Origin: a virus
Strand: one strand, 5' to 3'
Virus record (IMG/VR): IMGVR_UViG_3300045988_162015
Length of the DNA stretch: 64,000 nt
This document shows, piece after piece, positions 25,829 through 64,000 of the stretch. The notes below the pieces were generated by a model that worked only from the letters and a program-made list of their open reading frames with translations, ran no database searches and had not been told where the DNA came from. Within the stretch, counting starts at the first letter, position 1. Each line of letters begins with the position of its first letter. The translations under genes were made by a program, and so were the position numbers.

Positions 25829-26986
25829 ATGAGTTATTTATTTACCAGTGAGAGCGTTTTTGCCGGTCACCCTGATAAGGTTTGTGATTAGGTAAGTGAT
25901 GCTATTCTGGATTATGTCCTCCAGCTTGATCCTGATGCACGAGTAGCTTGTGAATGTACTATTAGCCCAGGTCTTTTCCATATCATGGGAGAGATTACAG
26001 CTAAAACAGAACAATCTATTCCTTATCAGGAAATTGCAAGAGAGACTTTAAGATTTATTGGTTATGACAATGATGAAGCAGGATTTAACTGTGACACTTG
26101 TTCATATATTATTAATGTAGTAAATCAATCTCCTGACATCGCTGCGGGTGTTGATAGGGATGGTGCTGGCGACCAAGGCATGATGTTTGGTTATGCAACC
26201 AATGAAACAGAAAATTATATGCCTATTGCCCAGCAGCTTGCTAATAATATCTCGGTCATTATGTTCAGCAAGTATAAGAATGATTTGCTACCTTGGGCAT
26301 TACCTGATGGTAAATGTCAGATAACTGTCCAATACGATGATAATGGTAACTTTGAAGGGGTAGATACAATTGTCGTATCGGCCCAACACAAAGACAAGTA
26401 TAGTATTAAGGAAATAACACCCGATATTACGAACATTTGTAATATTGCCCTTCAAGGTTATGCCATTAAAAAAGATTGTAAATTTTATATTAACCCAACA
26501 GGTAAGTTTGTAGAGGGCGGACCTGCGGCTGATACTGGATTAACTGGACGTAAAATTGTCGTAGATACATATGGTGGCTACGCTCCGCATGGTGGTGGAG
26601 CATTCAGTGGCAAAGACCCCAGTAAGGTAGACCGTAGTGGTGCATATATGGCACGTTATGTAGCTAAAAATCTTGTAGCTTCTGGCGTTTGTGATAAATG
26701 TATGATTCAAGTTGCTTATATTATTGGGCAGACAGAACCTGCATCTATTGATATTAATTGTTTTGGCACAGAAAAGAAACCTATTGCTGAAATTCTTGAA
26801 GCAGTTAATCAAACATTTGATTTTGCACCGCGTAGTATTATTCATAAATTTGATTTAAAGCATACTCGTTATCTGCCCTATGCTTGCTTCGGTCATTTTG
26901 GTCGCATTGAATGCAATAGTCCTTGGGAACAACTTGATAAAGTAGACGAATTAAAAACAATTTTTAATTTTGAAAAGGAGAACTAA
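25829..26986 (+). CDS. metK: S-adenosylmethionine synthetase (MetK), with an in-frame TAG at 25889 that aligns with a conserved Gln
   Basis: LFTSESV..GHPDKVCD[TAG]VSDA aligns with E. coli MetK HPDKIADQISDA. The motifs GAGDQG, DTYGG and GGAFSGKDPSKVDRS are also present. Confidence 0.9.
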
Positions 26987-45983: not shown

Positions 45984-46291
45984 TGGCAAAAGGTAGTATT
46001 GCTAAAGATGCTGTTGTAGAAAAAATTGCAGAAGCATTTGGCGAAGATTTCCTCGGATCTTATGATAAAAAGTATTATGTGCGAGCTAAAGAAAATGGAC
46101 AATATATTCAGATTGCAATTAGTCTAACTTGTCCAAAAACACCTGTTGAATCTTTTGGTTCTATGGATTTTGGCAATAATGAACTTAATTTTGAAGATGG
46201 AGCAACAATTCAGCCTGCAAAAAAGGCTACAGAAATTAGTCCAGAAGAAGAAGAAAATTTAAAAACTTTAATTGAAAAGCTTGGTTTGTAA
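45983..46291 (+). CDS. hypothetical protein (102 aa)
   Basis: TAATG coupling. Confidence 0.5.
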   Translation: MAKGSIAKDAVVEKIAEAFGEDFLGSYDKKYYVRAKENGQYIQIAISLTCPKTPVESFGSMDFGNNELNFEDGATIQPAKKATEISPEEEENLKTLIEKLGL

Positions 46292-46325
46292 GAGAAAGTC
46301 AAATTGACTTTCTCTTATTTTTATG
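46291..46325 (+). terminator. rho-independent terminator
   Basis: AGAGAAAGTCAA/TTGACTTTCTCT palindrome followed by TATTTTTAT. Confidence 0.6.
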
Positions 46326-46398
46326 TTATAATTATTTATATAGGGCATATTATATTAATTAAATAATTAAATTTCTTATATAAGAAAGGAATAAAAAT

Positions 46399-46680
46399 AT
46401 GAAGAAGATTATAATTCCTCAAGAAGAAGTAAATTATCTTTAGAAATTAAATTATGAAATTGAAGCTAGAAAAAATTTATGTCAATTTTTAATTAGACAA
46501 AATATTAGAAATAAAGCTTTTGATGATTATCATAATGAGTATATAGAATTATTTGCTGAATATGAATTAGCTAAATTAGAATTAGAAAATAATTATATTA
46601 AACCAGTAATTGGAAATCAAACTTGTAATTGGAATTTAGATTTTTAGACAAACGAGGTAAATATTGATGTTATTTCCTAA
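46399..46680 (+). CDS. small protein upstream of the radical SAM gene (93 aa; 2 in-frame TAG); possible peptide-recognition partner
   Basis: AAGAAAGGAATAAAAATATG RBS. Overlaps the radical SAM start by 14 nt. The function is a guess. Confidence 0.35.
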
Positions 46681-48007
46681 GATAATTAATATTCCTGAAG
46701 AATTTTCTGATTTTATAAGTCGTTTATATTCTAATGATTGCTTAAATTCTTAGGCTGTATTTACATTAACTTTTTAGGTTACAGATGATTGTTGTCTAAA
46801 TTGTGTTTATTGTTATCAAGGACATAAAGGAAAACATAAATTATCCTTTAATACAGCTAAATAGATGATTGATTAGATACTAACAAGAGACAATAAAGTT
46901 ATTAATTATATTGATTCTTATAAAATACCAGGAGTAGTAATAGAATTTATAGGTGGAGAGCCATTTTTAGAAATTGAATTAATTGATTAGATTACTGATT
47001 ATTTTATTAATAAAATGATTGAATTGCGGCATCCTTGGGCCACTAAATATAAAATTTCAATTAGTTCTAATGGTATTTTATATTTTGAACCAAAAGTACA
47101 AGAGTATATTAAAAAAAATAATGAAAATTTAAGTTTATCAATTTCTATTGATGGAAATAAAAAATTACATGATGCTTGTAGAGTTTTCCCTGATGGTAGT
47201 GGTAGTTATGATAAAGCATTGTCTGCTGCATTACATTATAGCCATAATTATAATAAATGGATTGGGAGTAAAATGACTATCTCTCCATTTAATATAGATT
47301 ATTTATATGACGCTGTTTTAGAAATGATAAACAATGGTTATAATCAAATCAATCTAAATTGTGTGTATGAAAAAGGTTGGGAACTTAACCATGCCACTAC
47401 ATTATATTATTAGTTAAAAAAAATTGCTGATTATTTATTAAATAATGATTTGTGGGATAAAGTTTATTTATCTATTTTTTATATTAATGATGGAAGTAAA
47501 AATTTATCTAATGATAATTGGTGCGGCGGGAATGGTCGTATGTTAGCCTTAAATTGGAAAGGTAAATATTATCCCTGTTTACGTTATATGGAAGATAGCA
47601 TAAGTAATCAGCCAGAATATTATATTGGAGATATTTATTAGGGAATAGGCCAAGATAATTTAACCATCAATAGATTAAAAGATTTATCTGAAATAACAGT
47701 TATTAGTCAATCTCCTCAAGAATGTTTAGATTGTGAAATTTCTGGAGGATGCTCTTGGTGTACAGCTTATAATTATCAAGAAACAGGTAATGTTAATAAA
47801 AGAGTTACTTATATTTGTGATATGCATTATGCTACAGTTCTAGCTTCTTTATATTATTTAAATTCTATTTTAAAAAAAATAAACTCGAATAAACGATTTA
47901 AATTTAATGGAGATATGGAAAAAGCATTAAAAATTATCTCTTAGGATGAATATAATATAATAAAGGAGGCAATGACAAATGAAAATAGGAACGACAATAA
48001 CTTCTGA
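46667..48007 (+). CDS. radical SAM/SPASM-domain peptide-maturase-like enzyme (446 aa; 9 in-frame TAG)
   Basis: Cx3Cx2C motif DDCCLNCVYCYQG. GGEPFL glycine-rich motif. SISSNG and SISIDG motifs. C-terminal SPASM cysteines CGGNG...YYPC and CLDCEISGGCSWC. Confidence 0.75.
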
Positions 48008-48629
48008 TAGATTTAATGAATTAAAGAAAAAAATAAAGGCTGAATGTTTACGTCGTAAATATACAGGTAGTGTAAGTTCATATGGAGGGACTTCTTATGA
48101 TTATACTACTTAGCCTAATAATGGAAAAGTTATTTCAAAAGAACATATAACAAAACTGGTAGAACCTATGGCGGCAATAAATATTGAAAATCAGAATGAA
48201 AATATAAATGTTATTAAAGATGATGATTTAAGTACATTAGAGGCAAAAATTACAGCTTATCAAGCTATGGGATTAACTGATTCGAATACTGGATGTTCAG
48301 CTTATTGCACTGGATTATGTTCTACCAGTTGTAGTGAAAGTTGTGGAGTACAATGTCAGGGAACTTGTTTAGGCAGTTGTAAGAATACTTGCCAAGGAGG
48401 CTGCCAAAACACTTGCAGAGGCGGATGTCGAAGCAGTTGTAGTGGCAGTTGTGATGGATGTAGTGGGTCTTGTTCAGGTGGATGCCGAACTGGATGTAGC
48501 GGATGCAGCGGTAGTTGTACAAGACATTGTGCTAACGATTGTACTGGATTATGCGGAGGAAGCTGTTCAGGCTTATGTACAAGTTGTACTGGTACATGTA
48601 GTGGCACAGGTAGAAATGAACCATTATAA
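47979..48629 (+). CDS. Cys-rich repeat precursor-like protein (216 aa): a ~110-aa leader followed by about 25 tandem Cx3C repeats, with one in-frame TAG at 48111
   Basis: AAGGAGGCAATGACAAATG RBS. The core reads GCSAYCTGLCSTSCSESCGVQCQGTCLGSC...CTGTCSGTG. It sits immediately downstream of the radical SAM/SPASM gene. Confidence 0.6.
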
Positions 48630-48747
48630 TTTAAAAATATTTATCGAAAATACATATAACTGTAAGATATATTATATGTATCTTATACAAGATAATATTT
48701 TATTTTGTATAAGTAATTATAAGAATATAAATTTTCAAAAATATAAT

Positions 48748-49317
48748 ATGGATATTTAGATTTTATCTGTTTATGAATATTTATGTCAAAAATATATTTT
48801 ACATAAGGATATATTAAAACAATATAAAGGTATAGAATTATATAAAATTATGGAAATTCAAGATAAAATTTTTATTAATAGATATAAATTATTATTGTAG
48901 ATTATTAATAATAATTATAATTTTGATAATTAGTTAATATACACTGATTTTAATAATTTTAATTTTGAACAAAATATTAGTTATATAAATTATTGTTTAA
49001 AATTACTATTTAATAATTTTAAAAAAATAGATAAACAATTTTGGAAAATTTTAGATTAGATTTATTTTTTAATTAATGGTAAAACTAATTTATTTTTATT
49101 GTTGGGAAATTTTTATTTGAATAAAAGTAATTTATAGCAATTTACTGAAGAAATAAAAAAAATTCCTGGAATTAAAGAATAGCTCTCTTTTAGTTATACA
49201 GCTTTAAATTTAGCTATTGAAATTGATAAAGTTGCAGAAAATAAAAATTATCTTAATGAATTAATTGAAATTATTGATAATCATTCACAAGAAAAAATTT
49301 ATAAATTTGATATTTAA
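48748..49317 (+). CDS. AT-rich hypothetical protein (189 aa; 7 in-frame TAG)
   Basis: Open only if TAG is sense. Lies downstream of the precursor. Low-complexity Asn/Ile/Lys-rich sequence. Confidence 0.35.
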
Positions 49318-49360: not shown

Positions 49361-49480
49361 GACTTTAACAGCAAAGAAATGGACAGTAAATCCGTCGCAA
49401 ATGCTACGCAGGTTCGAATCCTGCCCTCCCCACCATTATATGGCGGAGGTAGGGAAGCGGTTAAACCCAATGGGACCAAA
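49361..49480 (+). pseudogene. tRNA-like fragments: a 3' half (T-arm GGTTCGAATCC plus CCA) followed by a 5'-half-like D-arm
   Basis: GCAGGTTCGAATCCTGCCCTCCCCACCA, then GGCGGAGGTAGGGAAGCGGTTAAACCC. The acceptor halves do not pair. Confidence 0.35.
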
Positions 49481-49747: not shown

Positions 49748-49822
49748 GGGGTCGTGGCCAAGCGGTAAGGCCGACAACTTATAATTGTCAAATCGTTGGT
49801 TCGAACCCAACCGGCCCCACCA
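49748..49822 (+). tRNA. tRNA-Ile (anticodon UAU)
   Basis: Cloverleaf GGGGTCG/CGGCCCC. Anticodon loop CTTATAA. T-loop TTCGAAC. Encoded CCA. Confidence 0.7.
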
Positions 49823-49848
49823 TATTCCAATAGAAAGGAATTAAAATA

Positions 49849-50088
49849 ATGAAGTTGACAAATATTAAGCAGGTTGAAGATTTTATCGCAGCAGTTAATC
49901 GGGCACATAGTAATGTATGGCTGGTAAGTCCGCAGGGTGATAGATATAATATGAAATCTGCACTTTCACAGTATATTGCACTTGGTGCATTGCTCGGCCA
50001 GCATGGCGATGAATTGGAACTTTTCTGTGATAGTAAGCAGGATGAAGGCTTGTTTATTGAATTTTTTGTTCGTCACCCTGAAGTTTAA
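49849..50088 (+). CDS. hypothetical protein (79 aa)
   Basis: AGAAAGGAATTAAAATAATG RBS. Confidence 0.5.
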   Translation: MKLTNIKQVEDFIAAVNRAHSNVWLVSPQGDRYNMKSALSQYIALGALLGQHGDELELFCDSKQDEGLFIEFFVRHPEV

Positions 50089-50115
50089 TAAAAACATTAG
50101 AGAGGGAGGGGAAGA

Positions 50116-51075
50116 ATGACTGTTATTGAATTGTTCGCAGGAATTGGAACATAGATTTCAGCCTTGAGCGAGATTGATCCAAATATTAGATCAATTGGTA
50201 TTAGTGAAATTGATGAACGACCATTGAAAGCGTATAAAGTTTTGAATGGTGAATATAATAATTTTGGTGATATCACAAAAATTGATACTTTGCCCTACGC
50301 AGATATTTGGACTTATTCTTTCCCTTGTACTGATTTATCTATTGCAGGGAAGCAAGAAGGTTTTCAAGGAAAAAATTCTTCATTAATTTATGAGGTATAC
50401 CGTCTCTTGCTTTCTTCTCCAAAGCCAAAAATTCTTTTAATGGAAAATGTGGCCAATATTTGTAATAATACTTTTATGCCAAAATTTCAAGAGTGGATTA
50501 ATAGTTTAGCTGAATTAGGTTATGTATCTAGTTGGAAGAAAATAAAAGCTTATGAATATGGCGGAGCAACTATTAGAGATCGTGTATTCATGATTTCAGT
50601 AATTTCTCCTTTAAAAAAGTTTATTTTCCCTTTAGCTGAAAATGTTAAAACTACTTTAAAAGATTTTTTGGAGCCAATTAACGAAGAATATTTCATTGAT
50701 AGTTATGATGGCCCAAGTGATATTACTACACCATATTATAATGGAGCTAAAAAACTCTGTGATTATAAAAATGGTGGTCAAGGAAATCGAATTTATTCTA
50801 TATTTGGACAAGGAGTTACATTAACTGCTTCTGGTGGAGGAAAAGCCGGATCAAGTGGTGGTTTGTATCTTCGTAATAATAGTATTTATAAACTTACTCC
50901 AATTGAGATTTGTAAAGTAATGGGTTGGACTAAAGTAGAAGCAGAAAAGATTTGTTCTGTTTTAACCCCTAGAGAAGTGGGTTTTTGCTTGGGCAATGCC
51001 ATTGATAGAAATGTGTTAATTCATATTTTTAAAGGGATAAAGGAACAATACTATGATGAATTGGGAGAAAAGTGA
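50116..51075 (+). CDS. DNA (cytosine-5)-methyltransferase, with an in-frame TAG at 50152
   Basis: Motif I ELFAGIGT. Motif IV FPCTDLSIAG (PC motif). Motif VI ENV. GGGGAAGAATG RBS. Confidence 0.7.
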
Positions 51076-51679
51076 AAAGAAAGCATTTGAATGGTTTAAA
51101 AATAACTATGATAATGATGCGGTTTACCAAGGACATAATAATTCTACTATTTCAGATATTTATTCTCCTTTATATAATTGCTATATTGAAGTAAAAGATA
51201 TTACTAATGGTGCTCGATGCGGGCAATTTACTAAAAGTACCATCAGTAATAACCCATATGCTGAAGCTATTTATTTGGGTAAAAATGATGAAGAAACTTG
51301 TATAAATTTTGTAAAAGAGCATTATAGAGCTAAACGAGTAGGGGCTTTTATTATTATTAATAATAATAATATTTCTCTTGTGGCTTTTGATGATTTTTTT
51401 AATAATTATACTTTTGAAATTCAAAAGCCTTATTGCAAAAGAAGCGGCACTTCATCGGCTCCAATTAAAGATAAAGAAACTCTTTTAAAATTTAATACAG
51501 GATTTTATCAAGAAAATAATAAAGTTTTTTGTTCTGATCAAAATTTATTTGGTACTTATTGTTCAGTATTTAATCCTTTTGATTATTTTATCAGTAAAAC
51601 AACTGGTGAATTAAGAAAAAGAAGTAATACTAATAATATGACTTGGCATATTGTAATTAAAGAAAAATTGAAAAATTAA
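51053..51679 (+). CDS. putative PD-(D/E)xK nuclease partner of the methyltransferase (possible Type II restriction endonuclease)
   Basis: Overlaps the methyltransferase 3' end. SDIY...CYIEVKD is a possible D...ExK motif. Weak. Confidence 0.3.
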   Translation: MMNWEKSEKKAFEWFKNNYDNDAVYQGHNNSTISDIYSPLYNCYIEVKDITNGARCGQFTKSTISNNPYAEAIYLGKNDEETCINFVKEHYRAKRVGAFIIINNNNISLVAFDDFFNNYTFEIQKPYCKRSGTSSAPIKDKETLLKFNTGFYQENNKVFCSDQNLFGTYCSVFNPFDYFISKTTGELRKRSNTNNMTWHIVIKEKLKN

Positions 51680-51715
51680 AAAAAATATTATAAAATATAT
51701 ATACAAAATAAATGA
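51662..51715. promoter_or_regulatory. phage middle/late promoter motif
   Basis: AAAAATTAAAAAAAATATTATAAAATATATATACAAAATAAATGAG. Confidence 0.4.
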
Positions 51716-51735
51716 GAAATAAATTCTCATTTGTA

Positions 51736-51812
51736 TGGGACAGTAGCTTACGAGGTCGGAGCATTGGTCTGAAAAACCAAAGGATGGAGGCTCGATACCT
51801 CCCTGTCCCACC
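51736..51812 (+). tRNA. tRNA-Phe (anticodon GAA)
   Basis: Acceptor GGGACAG/CTGTCCC. Anticodon loop CTGAAAA. Atypical T-loop CTCGATA. Encoded CCA. Confidence 0.6.
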
Positions 51813-51895
51813 AATTGGTCTTACACATGGGGTTTCCGATTTGAACTAGGCAGATTAGTCACCTGCCGTTGGCAATAGACCAATTAAAAATAAAC
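51813..51895 (+). ncRNA. structured hairpin element (9 bp outer stem AATTGGTCT/AGACCAATT enclosing an inner GGCAG/CTGCC stem-loop)
   Basis: Nested inverted repeats lying between two tRNAs. Function unknown. Confidence 0.3.
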
Positions 51896-52031
51896 TGAGG
51901 CAAAGGGAAATCGGGTAGTTATGATGAACTTCATAATGAAATCCTCTTGTAATCAAGCTAATTGGGAGAGAGGTAGCACGGGAACGGGGAGAAGCGTGCT
52001 ATAAAAGGTGAAATACTTCTTTCCACCATAT

Positions 52032-52107
52032 GCCGGTGTAGCCGAATGGCATAGGCGAATGATTTAGGATCATTAATCTGAAGGTTCGAATCCTTTCACC
52101 GGTACCA
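52032..52107 (+). tRNA. tRNA with anticodon UAG (Leu-decoding) but a type I body (5-nt variable loop)
   Basis: Acceptor GCCGGTG/CACCGGT. Anticodon stem AATGA/TCATT with loop TTTAGGA. Variable loop AATCT. Encoded CCA. Confidence 0.6.
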
Positions 52108-52176
52108 TAAGCCGATATCTTTGTACTATCCGGTGGTTGGTGGCTCCATCGTTATGTAAATAAGCCATATATATAT

Positions 52177-52247
52177 TACTTCTTGGTGTAATGGAAGCAC
52201 GCTGCCTGAAGGGGGCGGAGGTATTGGTTCAATTCCAATAGAAGGAT
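52177..52247 (+). tRNA. tRNA-like gene, anticodon unresolved (loop TGAAGGG with G33); possibly a pseudogene
   Basis: D-arm GTG-TAATGGAAG-CAC. T-arm ATTGG-TTCAATT-CCAAT. The acceptor pairs 6 of 7. Confidence 0.35.
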
Positions 52248-52597
52248 TAATTAAAGCTGGGAAATAATAGTCGCCCATAACTAATTATTTAATATAGGAC
52301 TATTATTAAAGATTATTTAAGTTAAAGAAATGCGGTTGAAGTTATTACTTACTTGATCATAAAATAATATAACCGCAAGACGAGTGTTTGAAGCTTGTCT
52401 ATAAACAAATTCTTCATATGTTGTCTTTTTATACTTACTCTTTGGCTGTTTCTTGACATATAAGTAAAGGCGAAAAGGGAGTTAAAGGTTTAACTAAAAA
52501 ACCAGTTTGTTTTTTGATAAGATTTTAAAGGTTAGGTGGCAAAATCTTATTTGAGTGACGCTGCTCAGGAGGGTCCGGAACCTCTAAAATGCGATAT

Positions 52598-52730
52598 GCG
52601 CCAGTGGCCAAGTGGTATGGCACCTGCCTTTGTGGGATTGATGTAAGTAGCATTTTAATGTATTGGTTCAAATCCAATATTCCGCACCATAAGCAGGGCA
52701 ACGCGGGTTCGATCCCCGCCTGGCGCACCA
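52598..52730 (+). tRNA. tRNA interrupted in the anticodon loop by a 58-nt insertion (52632-52689) that itself resembles an anticodon-arm-less mini-tRNA
   Basis: Outer tRNA: acceptor GCGCCAG/CTGGCGC, D-arm GCC-AAGTGGTAT-GGC, and anticodon stem halves CCTGC(52623)...GCAGG(52693) separated by the insert. The T-arm is GCGGG-TTCGATC-CCCGC with an encoded CCA. Insert: acceptor GTGGGAT/ATTCCGC, D-arm ATG-TAAGTAG-CAT, T-arm ATTGG-TTCAAAT-CCAAT, then ACCA. Confidence 0.45.
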
Positions 52731-53064
52731 GGTCAAGTTTGAGAAATTTCATAGAGCATTGCTGACGTTAAATGGTTCTTATATGAAAGCGCGTAATTAG
52801 TATAAGAAACAAAATTCTCGTAGTTCATCCCATTAGAGAATCTTAAAGAGTAATGGCAAGGTCATATCGCGGGAGACCGTGCGTATGAGATACCTAAATA
52901 AAGGTAGCACATTCTGTGTTGAGCAGAATACTAGTGGAAATCAAGCGGGTCCACCTTACTGGGCCTACTGTAATAGCCAGTTTAATATGCCCTCCATACC
53001 CAATGAGGAATTTTTATAAAAGTCTATTTAATTTTTCTTGGCAGTTTAGTTAAATAGACTATAT

Positions 53065-53141
53065 GCGGGATTAGCTCAGCTGGTTAGAGCGTTTGGTTTA
53101 CACCCAAGAGGTCATTGGTTCGAATCCAATATCCTGCACCA
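53065..53141 (+). tRNA. tRNA-Val (anticodon UAC)
   Basis: GCGGGAT/ATCCTGC. D-arm TAGCTCAGCTGGTTAGAGC. Anticodon loop TTTACAC. Encoded CCA. Confidence 0.7.
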
Positions 53142-53142
53142 A

Positions 53143-53200
53143 TAAATTTGAAAATTTAAAAAAAATATTATATAATATTTATATAATAATAAAGGAGATA
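53143..53200. promoter_or_regulatory. phage promoter motif, variant B
   Basis: AAAAAAATATTATATAATATTTATATAATAATAAAGGAG. Confidence 0.4.
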
Positions 53201-53206
53201 TTTGAA

Positions 53207-53374
53207 ATGGCAACTACTAAGAAACCTGCTATCAAGATGGATAATGAAGAGTTGAATGAGTATCTTCTGTTTCGCCGTCGTAGATCAATTGTCCCTGCCA
53301 AGAAAGGTAAGGGTATGGAATATGATAGAGCGAAGGAAAAAGAAAAATCTGAAAAAATGATTTCTGATGAATAA
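53207..53374 (+). CDS. small basic protein (55 aa)
   Basis: AAAGGAGATATTTGAAATG RBS. Confidence 0.4.
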   Translation: MATTKKPAIKMDNEELNEYLLFRRRRSIVPAKKGKGMEYDRAKEKEKSEKMISDE

Positions 53375-53441
53375 ATATGCTCCCATCGACAAGTGGTCTA
53401 AGTCACCAGCCTTTCACGCTGGAGTCGCCGGTTCAAATCCG
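53369..53441 (+). tRNA. tRNA-Glu (anticodon UUC)
   Basis: GCTCCCA/TGGGAGT. Anticodon loop CTTTCAC. T-arm GCCGG-TTCAAAT-CCGGC. No encoded CCA. Confidence 0.6.
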
Positions 53442-54159: not shown

Positions 54160-54183
54160 AATTATTCTTATATGGTGCTATAG

Positions 54184-54352: not shown

Positions 54353-54355
54353 AAC

Positions 54356-56349: not shown

Positions 56350-57411
56350 ATGGCTGAAATTATTAAGTTAAGACGCGGTAAATCAACCAGTTGGTCTAAA
56401 AAGAATATAGTCCTGGCAGCTGGTGAAATCGGCGTAGAACTTGATACACATTAGATTAAAGTCGGTGATGGTTCAACCCCTTGGAATGAACTATCTTATG
56501 TAGGCGGAACTAAAGTTGTTAATGTTCAAGAATACACTGATAATCCAGCAGTTGTAGATGGTGTGCCTTATCAATCTATTGATGTAGCATTTATGAAGGC
56601 TCCAGCAGGAAGTACAATTCGTCTTAATGCTAACTTTGATAACAGTGTTTCTATTGATAAAGCATTGACTATTGAATTAAATGGTAATGATATTATTAAT
56701 AATGAAAAAACTCCAATAAATATCAAAGCAAACGGCGATTTAACTATTAAGGGCCAAGGTACTATTGAATGTAATAAGAATGAAAATGCCGCGGTTTTTA
56801 ATAATGGTAATATTACTATTAATAATGGTAAATTACAACGTACTACTGATATATCAGGCAACGGTTATTATACTGCTGTTAATCATGGCACTATGACAAT
56901 TAATGGCGGCATGTTTATGAGTGGTGGCGAATTTTCTAGCATGATTGAAAATGGCTATTGGGATTATCACGCTGGTAATGCTACTAATGGTTATGTTCAA
57001 GGTCAAAATGCTGAAATGCCTACATTAACTATTAATGATGGTACATTCGCTGGCGGCTTATATGCTATAAAAAATGATGATAATGCTGTTTTAAATATTA
57101 ATGGCGGCACATTCTATAATACTATTCTTGCTAATGGTAAGTCAATAACTATCACTGATGGGTATTTTGAAAATAGTAAGCCAAGTCAAGGCGAATATAA
57201 TTTTTATCTTCGTAAATTAAGTGAAGATTTAAATCCTCAAAATACATATATTAGTGGCGGTACATTTATTACTGCACAAGATAAGAATTTCAAGGTTGAG
57301 GGCGATCCTCATATTGAAATTAGCGGTGGCCGTTTTAATAGAGAATTAGATCCTTCTTATCTAGCTCCTGGCTATAGACAAGTACTTGTCAATGGCTTCT
57401 ATACTGTCTAG
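56350..57411 (+). CDS. tail fibre/tail spike protein with a beta-helix-like Asn/Gly-rich repeat region, and an in-frame TAG at 56452
   Basis: N-terminal motif IKLRRGKSTSW...GEIGVELDTH[TAG]IKVGDGSTPWNELSYVGG is shared with four other genes. The repeats are NGN.IT.N.G-type. Confidence 0.55.
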
Positions 57412-57426
57412 AAGGAGGAATAATCT

Positions 57427-57942
57427 ATGGCTGATATCATCAAGTTCAAAAGAGGTCGATCAACTACATGGCGTGAAAAGAACTTATTGCTTAAGGATGG
57501 CGAGCCTGGATTTGAATTAGATACTCATAAACTGAAAATTGGTGATGGTAAAACCTTATGGAATGATTTACCATATATCGGTGGCGAAAGTGGTACAATT
57601 GATCTTCCTGATAATGTAATGGAATTTTTAGGCACAGTTGATGCACTTCCAGCTACTGCTGAAGATGGAGAAATGTGTATTTATGATGGTAAATTATATA
57701 TTTACGATGGTAAATGGACAACTACAGAAACTTCTTCTTCAGCACAAAATTCTTTCAATTCTTTAGTAGATGCAATTAACTATATTACTTAGCATAATTG
57801 TGTTGGTCAAATTGTATCTATCTTTTAGAATAATAAATGGTTGCCTTATATTGTAGATGTAAATAATAATCTTGTACCTATTCAATATGGAGAAGATCAT
57901 TATGATATTCTTAATGGCGGCAACGCAAATACTCTTAATTAA
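57427..57942 (+). CDS. tail-fibre-motif protein (171 aa; 2 in-frame TAG)
   Basis: IKFKRGRSTTW...GFELDTHKLKIGDGKTLWNDLPYIGG. The frame continues past the TAGs at 57790 and 57826. Confidence 0.5.
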
Positions 57943-57964
57943 TTTTATAGGAGGAAAATAATTT

Positions 57965-59182
57965 ATGGCTGAAAATATTCTTAATACTCGCATTCAAGTA
58001 TTAAATGACACGGCTGAAGCTCTTAAAGCAAAAGGTAGTGCAGTCCCAAAAGCTGGCGAAATTGTTTATGAGAACGATACTCGTAAAATGAAAATCGGTG
58101 ATGGTACTACTACTCTTGAAAACTTAAAATATTTTGGTGGCGAAGCCGCTCAAAATTTTGAAACTATTCCAACAGGTGAAGAAACTGACGTTCAGGCTAT
58201 TACTCGTATTGTAGCTTCTGCAGAACTTCACAATGGCGATACTGCTATTGTAAAGCGTGCTATTACTGGCGATAAGACTTCTTATACTGCTTACGTATAT
58301 GACGGCGAATGGAAAGCTATGGATGGCAATTATCGTGCTGATAATGTTTATTTTGATGATGACATTACTTATACTGTTGCTATTGGCACTTTAGCTAAGC
58401 CATCTGGTTCTGCTAAATTTGCAGCTAAAGGTAAGAGCGTTGAACAGGTCCTTTCTACCTTAATGGCCAAGGAAGCTAATCCTTCTAAGTCTGATCCTGC
58501 TGTTAGTTTCAGCTCTACTAGCGGACTTGGTACATTTGAAATTGGCACGAAGAAGAATTTAACATATACAGCAGCTCTATCTGCTGGTAGTTATACTTAT
58601 GGTCCAGCTACTGGTATTACAGCTCAGAGTTGGAGTGTAAAATGCACTGGTGTTGAAGATGTCCTTGCTACTGCTACTGGTTCTTTCGATAATGTTGTTG
58701 CTGAAGCAACAGCTAAAAAAATTACTGCAACCGCAACTTATGGCGACGGCACTATTCCTAAGACCAATCTAGGTAATTCTTATCCTGCTAGCCAGATTAA
58801 GGCAGGCTCAGCATCTAACGATAGCAATGTCCTTTAGGGTGTCCGTCATATGTTCTATGGTCCTATGACTACTGATGCAGCTCTTGATAGTACTACTATT
58901 CGTGGATTAAAACATGAAGCTGCTAATAAAAAGCCTATTACTACATTTGGTGCAGGTGCTGGAGCAAAGAAAGTTGTTATTGCTTGTCCTGCTGGATATA
59001 ATGTAACTAAGGTTCTTATGCCTAGTGCTATGAATGCTGATGCTACTGCTAACTTTGTAAAGCAAGCTGGTACTGTTAATGTTGAGGGTGCTGAAGGATA
59101 TACTGCAGTTCCTTATACTGTTTGGGTATATTAGCCCGCCTCAATTGATAGTACTGAAACTTATGCTGTTACAATTGGTTAA
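57965..59182 (+). CDS. tail fibre protein (405 aa; 2 in-frame TAG)
   Basis: N-terminal motif GEIVYENDTRKMKIGDGTTTLENLKYFGG. In frame with track ORFs 57965 and 58850 through the TAG at 58838. Confidence 0.5.
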
Positions 59183-59206
59183 TTTATAAAGGAGGAATAA
59201 TATAAT

Positions 59207-61897
59207 ATGGCTACTATTTTAAAAGATGCTGCCTATATGGCTCTTCCTATGAATATCAAGCGTGGTAATCCTATCCCTCTTGATACTACTGCTGTATGGT
59301 ATGATAAAACTGAACTAAATAAGTATGCAGCTTCTGGTGCTACTGCATATGTTGGTCAGATTCTAACATTATGTGCCGATAATAAGTGTGAAGCTTATAT
59401 GATTTCTAATGAAGCTGGTACATTAATTAAACTAGCTTCTACAACCGCTTCTGGTGACCTTGCTGGCGATGTTACTACTCTACAAGGTCAAGTTACAAAT
59501 CTTATTTCTAAGGTTGGTAAAGCAGCTGATGGTGAAGTCGCAGCTACTGGTCTATATAAAGAAATTGCTGATGTTCTAGCTATTGCTAATGGCAAGGTTG
59601 CTTCTGTTAAGGCAGCTGATAAGTCCATTATGGTTGGTGGCAATGCTACTGAGCCTACTGTTAAGGTAGCTATTGCATCTGGTGAGGATAATGCTCTTTC
59701 ACTTGCAGCTGATGGTCTGAAGGTTGTTATTCCTGAAGTGACCGTGCCTGAATATAGCATGAAGAAGCTGGATGTCGCTACTGAGGGCATGTCCGCATCT
59801 TATCAGCTAACTAAGGATGGCACAGCTATTGGTGCAGTTATCGACATTCCAAAAGACATGGTTGTTAAGTCTGGTTCTGTTCAGACATTTGCAGCTGGTG
59901 AAGTACCCGCTGGTGTTACTGAGGCTGGTACATATATTGTATTAGTTCTAGCTAATACTACTAATGATAAATTATATATTAGAGTCAATGATTTAATTGA
60001 ATATGTCACCTCTGGCTCTGCTGCAGATGATATGGTATTCATCAATATTGATCCTAAGACTCATAAGGTAACAGCAAAAATTACTGACGGTAGCATCACT
60101 GAAGCTAAACTAGCAAAAGCTGTTACTGATAAGCTCGCTTTAGCTTCTTCTGCTATTCAGAAGGTCGAATCTGGTACTGCTAATGGCACTATTGCCGTTG
60201 ATGGTACTGATATTGCTGTCACTGGACTAAGGAGTGCTGCATATACCGATTCCACTGCTTATGATACTGCTGGTACTGCTGCTGGTATAAAGACAGCTCT
60301 TGAAGGTGCTGATGCTGATAAGGCTGATGCTCTTACCATTAAGGGTGCTAAGAAATATGCTGAGGAAAAAGCAACTGCAGCTCAGAGTGCTGCTGAAACA
60401 ACTGCAAAGGGCTATGTTAATGGCCTAAATCTTGCTGATAAAGCTGTTACCAAACAGCTCGTTTCTGCCGTTACGCAGACTAATGGTCAAATTGCAGTTA
60501 TTCGCCGTGAACTAGTTGCTGATGATATTCCCACTCTTGGTATTTCTAAGATTGATGGTCTTCAGGGTGCTCTTGGCGCTAAGTAGGATACCGTCGTATT
60601 TGATGGTGAATATTCAGCAAGTAATAAAGCTGCTACAGTAAGCACTGTTAATACTGCTGTTGATAATTTACGTCATACTGTTGATGGTAAAGGTAAAGAT
60701 ATTGATACCCAAGATAGTCAAACTATCCATGGTGCAAAAATTTATGCTGATGAAGTCAGTAAGGCTACTCTTGGTTAGGCTAAAACTTATGCTGATAGCT
60801 TAGTCGGTGATAGTTCTGCTATTGCTGGTCGTGTAACTACTCTTGAAGGCAAAGTTGATGTAGCAAAGGTTAGTACTGCTATCTCTACTGCTAAGAATGA
60901 GGCTATTGAGGCCGCAGCAACAGATGCCGCATCTAAGGATACTGCTTTAAAGACTGAGATCCTTGGGGACGGATATACTGGTACTGTAAAGGAAGCTTAT
61001 GACCTTGCTAATAAGAAAACTACTATGACTGAGGTTGAGGCTAAGGGCTATGCTGTTAAGACTGAAGTTGATACTGCTGTTGCTGATGCAAAGAAAGCTG
61101 GCACCGATGCTCAGACTTCTGTTGATACATTAAGTGGTAAAGTTGGTACTATTCCAGTAGGCGCTAAAGCTACTACTGTTATTGGTTATGTAGATGAAAA
61201 AATTGCGGCTATTCCTTCATAGGTTAATTATACCGTTACTGCTGATGTTAGTAGTCCTACTGGCATTGCCAAACGATATGTCCTTAGCCAGAATGGTAGT
61301 GATATTGTAACCATTGATATCCCCAAAGATATGGTGGTCAGCTCTGGTACTGTTGAAACTAAGGCTGATGCTGGTGTATGGGGGGTTGCAGGTACTTATC
61401 TAGTTCTTACTCTAGCTAATGCAACCTCTGACAAGGTATACATTAATGTTGGCGACCTTATTGAATATGTAACTAGCGGCTCTTAGGCTGACGATATGGT
61501 CGAAATCAAGATTGATGCCGAGCATAAGGTCACTGCCGTTATCAATGATGGTACGATTACAAAGGCAAAGCTAGCTTAGGCTGTACAAGATAGCCTAGAT
61601 AAAGCTGATACAGCACTATAGATGGCCGATCTTGCACCATATGCAAAGACTGCTGATATTAAAGCTGGCTATGTTGCAAAAGAAGATGGCAAACAGCTAA
61701 TGACCGCTGCTGAAAGCACTAAATTGGCCGGTATTGCTGCTAATGCACAGGTCAACGTGATTGAAGTCGTTAAGGTTGGCGGCACTGCTCTTGAAATTGC
61801 TGATAAAGCTGTTAATATTGAAACAATCAGTACTGATCTATTAACTCAAGGTGCTAAAACTCTTATTCTCAATGGTGGCACCGCTGCTTCTCTTTGA
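59207..61897 (+). CDS. large Ala/Thr-rich tail fibre/virion structural protein (896 aa; 6 in-frame TAG) with an internal ~100-aa duplication
   Basis: Joins track ORFs 59207, 61025 and 61622 in one frame. The duplication is IDIPKDMVV(K/S)SG(S/T)V...YVTSGS.ADDMV...KAKLA. Confidence 0.55.
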
Positions 61898-61964
61898 TAT
61901 ATATATATACTAGGGAGAGAGAAATCTCTCCCTTCCAATAGTAAAAGAGAAAGGGGAATAAAGA

Positions 61965-62306
61965 ATGGCTCAAAAAGAATTTAATACACGAATTAAATTA
62001 AAGTATGATACTTTAGATAAATGGTTAAAGAATACATCAGTTGTACTGCTTAAAGGCGAAATTGGCTTATGCTATGTGCCAGCGATTACATCTGGTACAA
62101 CGACCACAGCTCCTACTGTATTATTTAAAGTTGGTGATGGTACAACCACATGGGAAAAACTACCTTGGGGTGCAGGGCTTGGAGCAGATGTCCCGGCATG
62201 GGCTAAGGCACCTGCAAAGCCATCTTATACCCTTGATGAAATAGGTGCTAATCCTGATACTAACTATGTAATTTTCGATTGTGGTTCTTCTACTATAAAT
62301 ATATAA
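61965..62306 (+). CDS. tail-fibre-motif protein (113 aa)
   Basis: KGEIGLCYVPA...FKVGDGTTTWEKLPW. Confidence 0.5.
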   Translation: MAQKEFNTRIKLKYDTLDKWLKNTSVVLLKGEIGLCYVPAITSGTTTTAPTVLFKVGDGTTTWEKLPWGAGLGADVPAWAKAPAKPSYTLDEIGANPDTNYVIFDCGSSTINI

Positions 62307-62310
62307 GAAT

Positions 62311-62345
62311 AAAGACTCCATTTTGGAGTCTTTATTTTTTTTACC
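62311..62345 (+). terminator. rho-independent terminator
   Basis: AAGACTCCA-TTTT-GGAGTCTTT followed by T8. Confidence 0.7.
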
Positions 62346-62423
62346 TGGACTAATTTTATTAATTTAATATTTTTATTTTTTATATAAATTTAGAATAAGA
62401 AACATTGAAAGGAGGAACTTTCA

Positions 62424-63566
62424 TTGGCAGATAAACAATTAAAATCATTATAGTTTCCTAATATAAGTGATAAATATGTCGTTAAATTAACAGTAGAAGA
62501 ATTACAAAATTTATTATCTGATATTAGACTTAATGGCGGAATAGCTTATTAGAAAGATATAGTTACAAGCTACAATGATTTAAATGATAAACCTAAGATT
62601 TTAACAGAAAAAAATTTATCTGAAGAAGTAAATAATAAATTTGTAGAACTAAAATGTGTAACATTAGATGATTTAAAAAATCATACTAAAATGTTAGAAG
62701 CAAAATTTAATGGTAATGAAGAAAATGATTTAAGTGAAACCTGGATTATTCATAAAGCCCCATCTTTCTATTTTAAAAGTAATATTGAATTTGTTTCTAA
62801 TGGAATAACTTATTCTTCTATAGAATATAAAAAAAATACTTAGCCCAAGAAAGATGGTATTATTCTTGAAGATATGTTATATTATGATACCACTTGTGTT
62901 GGTCATAGTCCTCAAGATAATTCTGCTATTAATTACAAAGAAATATCTTGGGAAAATTAGGCTTATAATATAATTAAATTTACCAAAGAAAAGCCAACAG
63001 GTGATTTATTAAGATGGTTACAAGAAGATGGAACAATTAAAGGACCTAATACATTTCAAGGATTATTTAATTATGTAAATAATTAGGATAATGAAACTTT
63101 AAAAAAGGCTAAAACGTATATAAATGATGTCATGAATAATTATCATGCTCCAATAGCTAGTGAAAATACATTAGGTATAGTTATGGGCGGCGGAACTGGT
63201 ATCGGTATTGATGAAAATGGTAGATTATATGCAACAGGAGAAATTATAGCTGATGCAAATATCTTATGGTCTAAGATAGTAGAAAAACCTACTACTTTAG
63301 AAGCAATCAGCAAAGATGCAATGTGTCGAGCTATTATAAATAGTTTACCATCTAGTAGTTAGTCAGGTAATTATGCTGATTTATTAAATAAACCAGATTT
63401 ATCTAAATATGCTTTAAAAACAGATATATCTGAATATACATTACCAACTGCTTCAACCTCTACTCTTGGCGGTGTAAAAATAGATAATAGTACAATTGGT
63501 ATTAGTGATGGATTTATTTATGTAAAAAATACTAATTCAGCCGTTTGGACTAAATGGACAGGATAA
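62424..63566 (+). CDS. tail fibre protein (380 aa; TTG start; 6 in-frame TAG)
   Basis: AAAGGAGGAACTTTCATTG RBS. C-terminal ASENTLGIVMGGGTGIGIDENG...STLGGVKIDNSTIGISDGFIYV is like a fibre tip. Confidence 0.45.
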
Positions 63567-63638
63567 GTTTGAAATTGATAACTTATTTATTATAATCTTT
63601 ACTCTTTTGAAAATAGATGATTGAGAAAGATATTTAAT

Positions 63639-63700
63639 ATAGGGAAATAAATATCTTGAACTATTTTCAAGATATTTATTTCCCTATATTTTTGTTTAAG
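63639..63700 (+). terminator. rho-independent terminator
   Basis: Long stem ATAGGGAAATAAATATCTTGAA/TTCAAGATATTTATTTCCCTAT followed by ATTTTTG. Confidence 0.7.
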
Positions 63701-63711
63701 GAGGAAATATA

Positions 63712-64000
63712 ATGGCAAATAATACATTCCAAGGCCGTATGATTTAGAAGCATGATACAAAAGCTAATTGGGATAAAGCAACTAATTTTGTCCCCTTAAA
63801 AGGCGAAATTATTATATATGATGATTTAAAGAAAATAAAAATAGGTGATGGAGCTACTAAAGTAGGAAATCTGGTTTTTATTAATGACTTAGATACTATA
63901 AATGGAAAATATTTACCTCTTGCTGGCGGTACTATGACTGGTAATATTAATATTAATAATAAAACAATTACTAATTTAAAAACTCCAACAGCCGATACAG
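63712..64000 (+). CDS. tail-fibre-motif protein (partial; runs off the window; in-frame TAG at 63745)
   Basis: AAGGAGGAAATATAATG RBS. KGEIIIYDDLKKIKIGDGATKVGNLVF. Confidence 0.45.

What the first reader, a model, noticed from the sequence alone, without database searches (positions are those of the whole stretch)
46399..49317. Phage-encoded radical SAM/SPASM maturase next to a 216-aa precursor with about 25 consecutive Cx3C repeats: a candidate ribosomally made, post-translationally modified peptide (RiPP)-like cluster in recoded late DNA
The maturase gene (46667-48007) carries CCLNCVYC, GGEPFL and twin-cluster SPASM cysteines. It is translationally coupled to a small upstream protein that may act as a recognition element. 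It is followed after 29 nt by a precursor with a ~110-aa leader and a core CSAYCTGLCSTSCSESCGVQCQGTCLGSC... This radical SAM-plus-Cys-rich-precursor layout is the hallmark of thioether (sacti-/ranthipeptide-type) or similar cross-linked peptide biosynthesis. I do not know of such a cluster in a phage late region. The genes also carry 12 recoded TAG codons, so the product can only be made once suppression is active. The phage also encodes MetK at 25829, which could feed SAM to this enzyme.
Basis: partly seen in the sequence, partly recalled or inferred. Interest (0 to 1): 0.9.

Follow-up and report, generated by a model that had tools for sequence, protein, structure and literature searches.

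The report
Radical-SAM maturase plus Cys-repeat phage protein
The phage carries a real three-gene cassette, already catalogued but never studied in the lab, in which an iron-sulfur radical enzyme probably cross-links a protein with a cysteine at every fourth residue; related genomes suggest this protein is part of the phage tail rather than a free antibiotic-like peptide.

Summary
The genes are real once TAG is read as glutamine. They are a 93-aa protein (46399-46680), a 446-aa radical SAM/SPASM enzyme (46667-48007) and a 216-aa protein (47979-48629). The last has a 105-aa N-terminal domain and 27 cysteines at 23 CX3C and 3 CX2C spacings.

The class is not new. The enzyme scores 432 bits against NCBIfam TIGR04115, "radical SAM peptide maturase, CXXX-repeat target family" (cut-off 350). 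The repeat protein belongs to TIGR04114/PF27846, and RefSeq already uses the TIGR04115 name for a homologue.

Phages and prophages appear to be the usual home of this trio. It recurs in 80 viral contigs and in Bacillota prophages. There it usually sits between baseplate or tail-fibre genes and the lysis genes. In some lineages the cysteine repeats are fused to large tail-module proteins.

No peptidase, exporter or recognition-element domain was found. The N-terminal "leader" is predicted to be a folded helical domain.

My best reading is an enzymatically cross-linked (probably thioether) stalk in a tail-associated virion protein, not a diffusible RiPP. The chemistry is untested.

The parts
46288..46332 (+). 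Terminator-like hairpin of the upstream gene (46288-46318), overlapped by a promoter-like site (TTGACT, 17 nt, TG-TATAAT; 46304-46332). This is a possible start of the cassette's own transcript.
   Evidence: hairpin of 14 pairs followed by a T-run, and an 11/12 promoter match. Promoter-like sites are no more frequent than in shuffles in this AT-rich DNA, so the evidence is weak.
46399..46680 (+). Small 93-aa partner protein with 2 TAG codons. Its stop overlaps the enzyme gene's start by 14 nt.
46667..48007 (+). Radical SAM/SPASM maturase, 446 aa, 8 TAG codons, the first at codon 29, ahead of the CX3CX2C motif.
   Evidence: TIGR04115 scores 432.3 bits against a cut-off of 350. It matches phrog_1802. 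C42/C46/C49 and seven SPASM cysteines are invariant. The best solved relative is CteB (5WGG), E 2e-20, aligned from CteB residue 90, so the enzyme has no N-terminal RRE domain.
47979..48293 (+).
   Evidence: Conserved across 60 aligned homologues: E22, R25, R26 and P63 are invariant, with the motif KAECxRRKYxGSVxxYGGxxYDY. AlphaFold2 pLDDT is 80-95 over residues 1-100 in a 96% identical homologue. There is no fold match in the PDB.
48294..48599 (+). Cysteine-every-fourth-residue core, residues 106-207: 27 Cys at 23 CX3C and 3 CX2C spacings. This is the predicted substrate region.
   Evidence: TIGR04114 scores 19.7 bits against a cut-off of 20. The core matches phrog_6085. Homologues carry PF27846, named tSAM_targ_Cxxx_rpt. 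Purifying selection: 16-18 synonymous against 1-3 non-synonymous differences.
48748..49317 (+). Downstream 189-aa ORF with 6 TAG codons. An in-frame ATG at 48616 would give 233 aa. It is specific to this lineage and probably not part of the core system.
   Evidence: Homologues are found only in the closest phages, L001-L005. It has no Pfam, NCBIfam or PHROG match.
25829..26986 (+). Phage S-adenosylmethionine synthetase (MetK). This is context only.
   Evidence: Three Pfam S-AdoMet synthetase domains, E 1e-34 to 6e-60. Any functional link to the cassette is inference.
56350..64000 (+). Run of tail-fibre-like paralogues sharing one N-terminal motif. They lie 7.7 kb downstream of the cassette, beyond a tRNA array. 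This is context.
   Evidence: One search gives the ORFs. The protein at 56350 hits tail-fibre PHROGs over residues 1-60. In locus L031, proteins with the same N-terminal motif lie directly upstream of the Cys-repeat gene.

Best explanation
This is a member of the 'CXXX-repeat target' radical SAM maturase system (NCBIfam TIGR04115 enzyme, TIGR04114/PF27846 repeat target), carried by a TAG-recoded phage.

**Shown:**
- Three overlapping genes encode a small helical partner, a radical SAM/SPASM enzyme and a protein with a folded N-terminal domain followed by 27 cysteines at four-residue spacing.
- The enzyme has a complete SAM-cluster motif and a complete seven-cysteine SPASM motif.
- The trio is conserved across many phages and prophages, mostly beside tail-fibre, baseplate and lysis genes.

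**Inferred mechanism:**
- The enzyme cleaves SAM to a 5'-deoxyadenosyl radical and abstracts hydrogen from residues in the repeat.
- It joins cysteine sulfurs to backbone or side-chain carbons, repeating this many times along the core.
- The small partner probably presents or chaperones the substrate, because the enzyme has no recognition domain of its own.
- The product is not cleaved or exported. It stays attached to its N-terminal domain and serves as a covalently stapled, protease- and redox-resistant stalk in a tail-fibre-associated virion protein.
- In this phage the enzyme has a TAG at codon 29, so it can only be made when TAG is decoded as glutamine, that is, late in infection.
For: **Family membership**
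- TIGR04115 scores 432 bits against a cut-off of 350.
- RefSeq names the L095 homologue 'radical SAM peptide maturase, CXXX-repeat target family'.
- All SAM-cluster and SPASM cysteines are invariant.

**Thioether chemistry as the likeliest reaction**
- The next-best families are PapB (159 bits), SCIFF/CteB (106) and QhpD (81). All are Cys-thioether formers.

**Co-occurrence**
- A Cys-repeat ORF lies on the same strand within 6 kb of the enzyme gene in 75 of the 80 viral loci.
- A homologue of the small partner was found in 79 of the 81 viral/phage loci scanned (L001-L081), adjacent to the enzyme gene.

**Structural role**
- In L095 the cassette follows Baseplate_J and a Phage_tail_fib gene and precedes the holin and amidase. 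L084 has the same position after baseplate and tail-fibre genes.
- In L031 and L047 it lies between tail-fibre or glycine-rich proteins and a GH25 endolysin.
- In L043-L071 the repeats form the N-terminus of an 813-821-aa protein with two ALK_LTK_GRD glycine-rich domains.
- In L100 they form the C-terminal half of a 1380-aa protein. That gene is two genes after the tape-measure gene and is followed directly by a radical SAM gene.
- Of 102 loci, 73 have a recognisable tail-type neighbour.

**Not leader-like**
- The N-terminal domain is folded, with pLDDT 80-95.
- That domain is absent where the repeats are fused to other proteins.
- No protease or exporter family was detected in the four cassette ORFs.

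**Recoding**
Against: - No experiment exists for any member, and I found none in the paper library.
- The repeat has no conserved acceptor residue: X1 is Ser/Thr, X2 is Gly in 46%, X3 is Ser/Gly/Thr. It lacks PapB's Cys-X3-Asp/Glu motif, so the bond type is a guess.
- The slot between tail-fibre and lysis genes is also a classic place for accessory cargo genes. Position alone therefore does not prove a virion role.
- No virion proteomics was available.
- In this window the cassette is not directly beside tail genes. A tRNA array, a methyltransferase and a homing endonuclease lie between them. My neighbour scan found no tail or lysis gene within 6 kb for this lineage.
- AlphaFold gives no confident fold for the core.
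- The locus counts are inflated by near-identical contigs. There are perhaps 6-8 independent lineages.
Confidence: 0.55

Rival explanations
1. Classical RiPP. The 105-aa N-terminus is a long leader in the style of nitrile-hydratase or Nif11 leaders. After cross-linking, the Cys-rich core is cut off by a host or unlinked protease. It then acts as a diffusible peptide, for example a bacteriocin-like or signalling product that benefits the phage or lysogen.
For: - The layout is a radical SAM/SPASM enzyme plus an adjacent Cys-rich substrate, and the nearest characterised families make RiPPs.
- The junction motif TGCxxSCTGLC is highly conserved and could mark a recognition or cleavage site.
- The position between tail-fibre and lysis genes in temperate phages is a common site for accessory cargo genes.
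- Long, folded leaders exist in other RiPP classes (established knowledge).
Against: - No peptidase or transporter was detected in the window's four cassette ORFs, and none was noticed among the neighbours annotated in a handful of related loci.
- The enzyme has no RRE, and the small partner is not RRE-like.
- In several lineages the repeats are embedded in proteins of 767-1582 aa, at the N-terminus, in the middle or at the C-terminus. One of these is a tail-module protein next to the tape-measure gene.
- A core of 100 or more residues with 13-41 cysteines is far larger than known sactipeptides or ranthipeptides.
Confidence: 0.15
2. The Cys-repeat is a structural or metal-binding module, and the enzyme performs a different reaction. 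The module could be a disulfide ladder or a zinc- or iron-binding rod. The reaction could be Cys-to-formylglycine or dehydro-residue oxidation, epimerisation, or C-C cross-linking. Alternatively the enzyme acts on another substrate altogether.
For: - No conserved acceptor residue exists in the repeat.
- The SPASM superfamily includes oxidases such as anSME and C-C bond formers, all of which give weak hits.
- Weak profile similarity was seen to Cys-rich metal-binding or disulfide-rich proteins in the PDB, E 0.1-1, not significant.
- SPN3US pairs its Cys-rich ORFs with two different radical SAM proteins.
Against: - Enzyme and repeat co-occur tightly and co-directionally across distant lineages.
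- The closest characterised relatives all join cysteine sulfur to carbon.
- anSME scores only 63 bits against a cut-off of 349, and its C/S-x-P/A-x-R target motif is absent from the core.
Confidence: 0.2
3. Artefact: the ORFs are interrupted pseudogenes and the Cys-rich frame is a chance product of a GC-rich tandem repeat.
For: Under the standard code the enzyme gene is broken into fragments by 8 TAG codons.
Against: - TAG read-through restores a full-length protein that passes a curated model.
- TAG aligns to Gln in non-recoded homologues.
- Neighbouring late genes also carry in-frame TAG.
- The core is under strong purifying selection and belongs to a family of 826 clusters at E <= 1e-10.
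Confidence: 0.01

Closest known systems
CXXX-repeat radical SAM maturase system (NCBIfam/TIGRFAMs TIGR04115 enzyme; TIGR04114 = Pfam PF27846 tSAM_targ_Cxxx_rpt target). From memory, it was defined by comparative genomics by Haft and Basu, J Bacteriol 2011, with a small third partner, TIGR04116.
   Same: - The enzyme passes the curated cut-off (432 against 350 bits).
- An adjacent target has a cysteine at every fourth residue.
- A small conserved third gene is present.
- RefSeq names a homologue (WP_114295821.1, about 45% identical by tblastn) with this family name.
   Different: - This copy is written in a TAG=Gln code inside a large phage.
- The repeat model scores 19.7 against a cut-off of 20.
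- The small partner matches no curated model.
- The family itself has no known chemistry or biological role.
PapB/PapA (freyrasin) ranthipeptide system
   Same: - It is the second-best model for the enzyme, at 159 bits over nearly its full length.
- It is a SPASM enzyme that installs many thioethers on a substrate with regularly spaced cysteines (chemistry from established literature).
   Different: - The score is far below PapB's cut-off of 340.
- PapA uses six Cys-X3-Asp motifs, with Asp as the acceptor. Here position +4 is the next cysteine, and no acidic residue is conserved.
- PapA is a short peptide with a leader. Here the substrate is a 216-aa protein with a folded domain.
CteB/CteA (SCIFF, thermocellin) thioether maturase, PDB 5WGG
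   Same: It is the closest solved structure (E 2e-20), sharing the radical SAM core and a twin-cluster SPASM domain.
   Different: - CteB has an N-terminal RRE of about 85 residues that binds the leader. The phage enzyme's alignment starts at CteB residue 90, so it lacks that domain.
- TIGR03974 scores 106 bits against a cut-off of 425.
QhpD/QhpC (quinohemoprotein amine dehydrogenase gamma subunit)
   Same: It is a precedent for a SPASM enzyme that staples a protein subunit with several internal Cys thioethers, where the product stays part of a larger assembly rather than being released (established knowledge; weak hit of 81 bits).
   Different: The acceptors are Asp/Glu. The substrate is a periplasmic enzyme subunit, not a phage protein. 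The score is far below the cut-off of 453.
Anaerobic sulfatase-maturing enzymes (anSME)
   Same: Same SPASM superfamily.
   Different: The score is 63 bits against a cut-off of 349. There is no sulfatase partner and no C/S-x-P/A-x-R motif.

Membership tests
TIGR04115 radical SAM peptide maturase, CXXX-repeat target family | Whole-protein score at or above the curated cut-off (350 bits) | tested here: met
   432.3 bits, E 1.9e-129, covering profile positions 3-359 of 359.
TIGR04115 radical SAM peptide maturase, CXXX-repeat target family | CX3CX2C radical SAM cluster motif and a complete seven-cysteine SPASM motif | tested here: met
   C42/C46/C49 and C286, C304, C353, C356, C362, C365, C384 are all invariant in 14 homologues.
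TIGR04115 radical SAM peptide maturase, CXXX-repeat target family | Encoded next to a protein with Cys-X-X-X repeats | tested here: met
   The overlapping downstream gene has 23 CX3C and 3 CX2C spacings. The same pairing is seen in 75 of 80 viral loci.
TIGR04115 radical SAM peptide maturase, CXXX-repeat target family | Small third partner protein (TIGR04116, recalled from memory) | tested here: inconclusive
   A conserved protein of 90-130 aa lies next to the enzyme gene (directly upstream in most) in 79 of the 81 viral/phage loci scanned. None of 16 members matches any NCBIfam model at E <= 1. I could not confirm that TIGR04116 is in the library.
TIGR04115 radical SAM peptide maturase, CXXX-repeat target family | SAM-dependent modification of the repeat protein | not testable with these tools
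   Needs anaerobic reconstitution and mass spectrometry.
TIGR04114 / PF27846 CXXX-repeat radical SAM target | Repeat model score at or above the cut-off (20 bits) | tested here: inconclusive
   19.7 bits against 20. The 96% identical P0001 and most of the 120 listed homologues carry a precomputed PF27846 hit (name seen).
PapB-type ranthipeptide maturase (NF047865) | Score at or above 340 bits, and a substrate with Cys-X3-Asp/Glu motifs | tested here: not met
   158.7 bits. Position +4 is Cys, and Asp/Glu make up 10% or less at each X position.
SCIFF maturase / CteB (TIGR03974) | Score at or above 425 bits, an N-terminal RRE domain, and a six-Cys-in-45-residue substrate | tested here: not met
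   105.8 bits. The alignment to 5WGG begins at CteB residue 90, so the enzyme has only about 35 residues before the core.
Anaerobic sulfatase maturase (TIGR03942) | Score at or above 349 bits, and a sulfatase partner with a C/S-x-P/A-x-R motif | tested here: not met
   63.2 bits. No sulfatase is in the cassette and the motif is absent from the core.
RiPP biosynthetic cluster (general definition) | Precursor with a leader that is recognised (usually by an RRE) and removed by a peptidase, often with a dedicated exporter | tested here: not met
   - No PqqD/RRE, peptidase or ABC transporter family was detected in the four cassette ORFs.
- The small partner's fold is a helical hairpin plus beta-hairpin, not a winged helix.
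- The flanks in relatives are tail and lysis genes.
- An unlinked host protease cannot be excluded.
Phage tail-fibre module component | Encoded within or fused to the tail, baseplate or fibre genes | tested here: inconclusive
   - Met in relatives: L084, L095, L031, L047 and L100, and 73 of 102 loci overall.
- In the window itself the nearest tail-fibre-like genes are 7.7 kb away, beyond a tRNA array.
Phage tail-fibre module component | Presence of the protein in purified virions | not testable with these tools
   Needs virion proteomics or cryo-EM.

The most novel reading that the evidence does not exclude
Phages may use a radical SAM/SPASM enzyme to build a 'cysteine ladder': dozens of enzyme-installed thioether staples along a CXXX-repeat stalk of a tail-fibre-associated virion protein. 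This would be a kind of covalently reinforced structural fibre not described for any virus. It would also be a use of RiPP-type chemistry on a structural protein rather than a natural product. The same module appears in gut Bacillota phages, in recoded large phages and, unannotated, in Salmonella jumbo phage SPN3US.
Probability: 0.4. Interest if true: 0.8.

Novelty: new member of a known kind. Interest (0 to 1): 0.45.

Why it matters
- **An uncharacterised but common system.** The family has been in curated databases since about 2011, yet no member has a known reaction or role. The sequence data here show it is widespread in phages: 826 clusters at 50% identity for the target and more than 100 viral contigs for the enzyme. 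They also give it a concrete, testable role in the tail.
- **What a positive result would add.** Enzyme-installed thioether stapling would join the known ways virions are hardened, such as HK97 capsid cross-links. It would also widen the substrate range of SPASM enzymes from short peptides to 100-700-residue repeat domains.
- **Relevance to genome mining.** These cassettes will be called RiPP clusters by mining tools such as antiSMASH-type ranthipeptide rules. They may therefore inflate counts of 'phage-encoded natural products'.
- **Recoding.** The copy in this window shows that such a late function is locked behind TAG=Gln recoding.

Tried and rejected
- **Literature.** Nine full-text searches found no experimental or descriptive paper on this system. 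The terms covered CXXX repeat, TIGR04115, SPASM with phage, ranthipeptide with bacteriophage, SPN3US with radical SAM, thioether with structural protein, and RiPP with phage genomes. The Haft and Basu 2011 paper is not held, so what I say about it is from memory.
- **Fold of the N-terminal domain.** Foldseek found nothing in the PDB at E < 1. In the viral library it found only uncharacterised homologues. The afdb50 library was unavailable.
- **PDB sequence search with the family profile.** Nothing was significant.
- **Annotated phages.** tblastn with the N-terminal domain found nothing, and megablast of the 8-kb region found nothing.
- **A universal fourth gene: rejected.** The 178-202-aa genes beside the cassette in L081, L095 and L101, the 132-aa gene in L047-type loci, and the window's 189-aa ORF are each lineage-specific.
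- **Hypervariable core (receptor-binding-like diversification): rejected for this lineage.** Differences from close relatives are almost all synonymous.
- **Direct structure prediction of the window proteins.** I used database homologues 96% and 99% identical instead.
- **Large repeat proteins.** Pfam and PHROG scans of P0267, P0218, P0346 and P0261 named no domain outside the repeats. My impression that P0267's N-terminus looks like a tail-tip protein rests only on its position after the tape-measure gene.
Full report
**1. What is in the sequence**

The window is 35% GC phage DNA. Many genes, including those of this region, contain in-frame TAG codons, whereas most of the left-hand half of the window has few or none. 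Under the standard code the region 46399-49317 breaks into fragments. Reading TAG through gives four co-directional genes:

- a 93-aa protein (46399-46680, 2 TAG);
- a 446-aa radical SAM protein (46667-48007, 8 TAG);
- a 216-aa Cys-rich protein (47979-48629, 1 TAG);
- a 189-aa ORF (48748-49317, 6 TAG).

The first three genes overlap, by 14 nt and 29 nt. GAGG and AAGGAGG Shine-Dalgarno sequences precede the second and third starts. The three core genes hold 11 TAG codons, or 17 with the fourth ORF.

TAG positions in the enzyme align with Gln in homologues that use the standard code. This holds at residues 37, 108 and 249 in most sequences. In the closest non-recoded relative, 5 of 8 TAG positions are Gln. 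No tRNA with a CTA anticodon lies in the window.

A hairpin with a T-run, overlapped by a good sigma-70-like site, sits just upstream of the first gene. Such promoter matches are no more common here than in shuffled sequence.

**2. The enzyme**

The enzyme has CX3CX2C at C42/C46/C49 and GGEPF. It also has a complete SPASM pattern (C286, C304, C353, C356, C362, C365, C384). All of these cysteines are invariant in 14 homologues.

Against NCBIfam it scores 432.3 bits on TIGR04115, 'radical SAM peptide maturase, CXXX-repeat target family'. The curated cut-off is 350. The next models all fall far below their own cut-offs:

| Model | Bits |
|---|---|
| PapB ranthipeptide maturase | 159 |
| SCIFF maturase | 106 |
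| CcpM | 98 |
| QhpD | 81 |
| Anaerobic sulfatase maturase | 63 |

The best solved relative is CteB (5WGG, E 2e-20). The alignment begins at CteB residue 90, so the phage enzyme lacks CteB's N-terminal recognition domain. RefSeq already names the Anaerobacterium chartisolvens homologue WP_114295821.1 with the TIGR04115 family name. The class is therefore known and curated.

**3. The Cys-rich protein**

Residues 106-207 contain 27 cysteines at 23 CX3C and 3 CX2C spacings. The rest of the core is mostly Gly, Ser and Thr. The repeat model TIGR04114 scores 19.7 bits against a cut-off of 20.

Many of the 438 database homologues carry PF27846. Its name, tSAM_targ_Cxxx_rpt, appears. An exhaustive profile search finds 826 clusters at 50% identity with E <= 1e-10.

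Across 120 homologues the spacing is 85% CX3C and 12% CX2C, with 13-41 cysteines per protein. X1 is mostly Ser/Thr, X2 is Gly in 46%, and X3 is Ser/Gly/Thr. No acidic acceptor is conserved.

The N-terminal 105 residues are well conserved, with the motif KAECxRRKYxGSVxxYGGxxYDY and the junction TGCxxSCTGLC. AlphaFold2 predicts them as a helical domain with pLDDT 80-95, while the core is unpredicted. This domain has no match in the PDB by fold or by sequence.

Compared with phages 95-97% identical, the core shows 16-18 synonymous but only 1-3 non-synonymous codon changes. Every core position is therefore under constraint.

**4. The small partner**

A homologue of the 93-aa protein lies next to the enzyme gene, directly upstream in most loci, in 79 of the 81 viral/phage loci scanned (L001-L081). 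It has 97 database clusters. It matches no Pfam or NCBIfam model, including PqqD.

**5. Where the cassette lives**

The enzyme has more than 100 relatives in IMG/VR contigs. Four are 95-97% identical, on contigs of 105-188 kb. It also has 17 relatives in GTDB genomes, all Bacillota, including Oscillospiraceae and Lachnospiraceae, among them Anaerolentibacter and Anaerobacterium.

The neighbouring genes in those loci are mostly tail or lysis genes:

- **L095.** The gene order is Baseplate_J, tail protein, Phage_tail_fib, Cys-repeat protein, a 185-aa gene, the small partner, the enzyme, a holin-like gene and an amidase.
- **L084.** The trio follows baseplate and tail-fibre genes.
- **L031.** Two tail-fibre proteins lie directly upstream of the repeat gene, and a GH25 endolysin follows. 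These fibre proteins share the N-terminal motif of the window's genes at 56350-64000.
- **L043-L071.** The repeats form the N-terminus of an 813-821-aa protein with two ALK_LTK_GRD glycine-rich domains. It sits beside a paralogue that lacks the repeats, followed by the endolysin, a holin-like gene and then what looks by eye like an integrase (not scanned).
- **L100.** A 1380-aa protein whose C-terminal half is CXXX repeats lies two genes after the tape-measure gene. A radical SAM gene follows it directly.
- **L081.** In this human-gut phage the cassette lies among Ig-domain structural genes.
- **Salmonella jumbo phage SPN3US.** Two unannotated Cys-repeat ORFs sit between a virion structural protein gene and its two radical SAM genes.

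Other repeat proteins of 767-1582 aa place the repeats at either end or in the middle. Of 102 loci, 73 have a recognisable tail-type neighbour and 46 have an endolysin. Many contigs are near-duplicates, so these represent perhaps 6-8 independent lineages.

The enzymes of L081 (301 bits), SPN3US (126 bits) and L100 (best hit PapB, 153 bits) fall below the TIGR04115 cut-off. The pairing of Cys repeats with SPASM enzymes is therefore broader than the curated family.

In the window itself the cassette is followed by a tRNA array, a DNA methyltransferase-like gene and a GIY-YIG-like gene. The tail-fibre paralogues then begin at 56350.

**6. Interpretation**

It is established that this is a genuine member of the CXXX-repeat maturase system. 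The chemistry and the role of the product are inferred.

A thioether-forming reaction is the best guess. Every close characterised relative joins cysteine sulfur to carbon, and cysteine is the only invariant feature of the substrate. The PapB-type acceptor is absent, so the bond type is unknown.

The product is more likely a cross-linked stalk of a tail-associated protein than a released peptide, for four reasons:

- the N-terminus is a folded, conserved domain;
- that domain is dispensable where the repeats are fused to other proteins;
- no peptidase, exporter or RRE was detected in the cassette;
- the repeats occur inside large proteins of the tail module.

Against this, the slot between fibre and lysis genes also hosts accessory cargo genes. 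No proteomic evidence was available, and in this window the cassette is not directly beside tail genes. I put the structural, thioether model at about 0.55. A classical RiPP gets 0.15, and other chemistry or a metal- or disulfide-based module gets 0.2.

The enzyme's first TAG precedes its SAM-cluster motif, so the enzyme cannot be made without TAG suppression. This follows from the sequence. The timing ('late') is inference. MetK is real, but its link to this cassette is speculative.

**7. Verdict**

This is a new member of a known, uncharacterised kind. The interest is moderate. It lies less in this particular copy than in the family-wide association with tail modules, which makes a specific hypothesis testable.

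Noticed in passing
L082 2094-2486 and 2497-2901 (Salmonella phage SPN3US, JN641803.1, about 143.4-144.2 kb, minus strand): Two Cys-rich CXXX-repeat ORFs (130 and 134 aa) are not annotated in the GenBank record. The annotated SPN3US_0166 lies in a different frame over the second one. They sit between 'virion structural protein 20' and the two radical SAM genes (gp164, gp163). They match the Cys-repeat family profile at E 1.5e-16 and 2.2e-11.
   Followed up: partly
window 49380-49480: A tRNA-like 3' end (GGTTCGAATCCTGCCCTCCCCACCA) is followed 6 nt later by what looks like a tRNA 5' half (GGCGGAGGTAGGGAAGCGGTTAAACCC). There are only sub-threshold hits to permuted tmRNA (15.9 bits, E 0.36) and to the tmRNA 3' end (9.5 bits). 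ARAGORN does not call it. It could be a permuted or two-piece tmRNA-like gene, or a tRNA fragment.
   Followed up: partly
window 52598-52686: Rfam finds a thirteenth tRNA (31 bits, 89 nt, possibly with an intron or a long arm) that ARAGORN missed. Its anticodon was not resolved. No tRNA with a CTA (TAG-reading) anticodon was found anywhere in the window, although the late genes are TAG-recoded.
   Followed up: partly
window 47979-48629 compared with L001 and L003 7313-7963: Silent divergence is concentrated in the Cys-core. There are 16-18 synonymous differences in 111 codons, against 2-3 in the 105 N-terminal codons, and almost no amino-acid change. This could reflect recombination among the repeats or a locally raised mutation rate under strong purifying selection.
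   Followed up: no
L100 (Logan ERR10503087 contig) 347-9537; proteins P0218, P0318, P0346: CXXX repeats also occur as domains of 300-700 residues inside giant proteins of 767-1582 aa. One is encoded two genes after a tape-measure gene and directly before a radical SAM gene whose best model is PapB, not TIGR04115. A glycosyltransferase family 9 gene lies two genes further on.
   Followed up: partly
window 50116-51075, 51053-51679, 53536-54159 and the tRNA array at 49748-55625: A tRNA array of 12-13 genes is interspersed with a DNA methyltransferase-like gene and a GIY-YIG-like homing endonuclease gene, identified by eye from the translations. The array separates the cassette from the tail-fibre paralogues.
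   Followed up: no
window 56350-64000: At least five consecutive genes share the same N-terminal motif of about 55 residues (RRG..W...N.vL..GE.g.E.DT...KiGDG.t.W..L.Y). PHROGs labels it tail fibre or hyaluronidase, and it resembles Mtd_N (weak Pfam hit, seen only on the L031 homologue). The genes have different C-terminal domains, which suggests a cassette of alternative receptor-binding proteins.
   Followed up: partly
window 14679-16147 (minus strand): Two minus-strand ORFs of 210 and 173 aa carry 10 and 9 in-frame TAG codons. They lie inside the otherwise TAG-free left half of the window, so recoded genes are not confined to one block.
   Followed up: no
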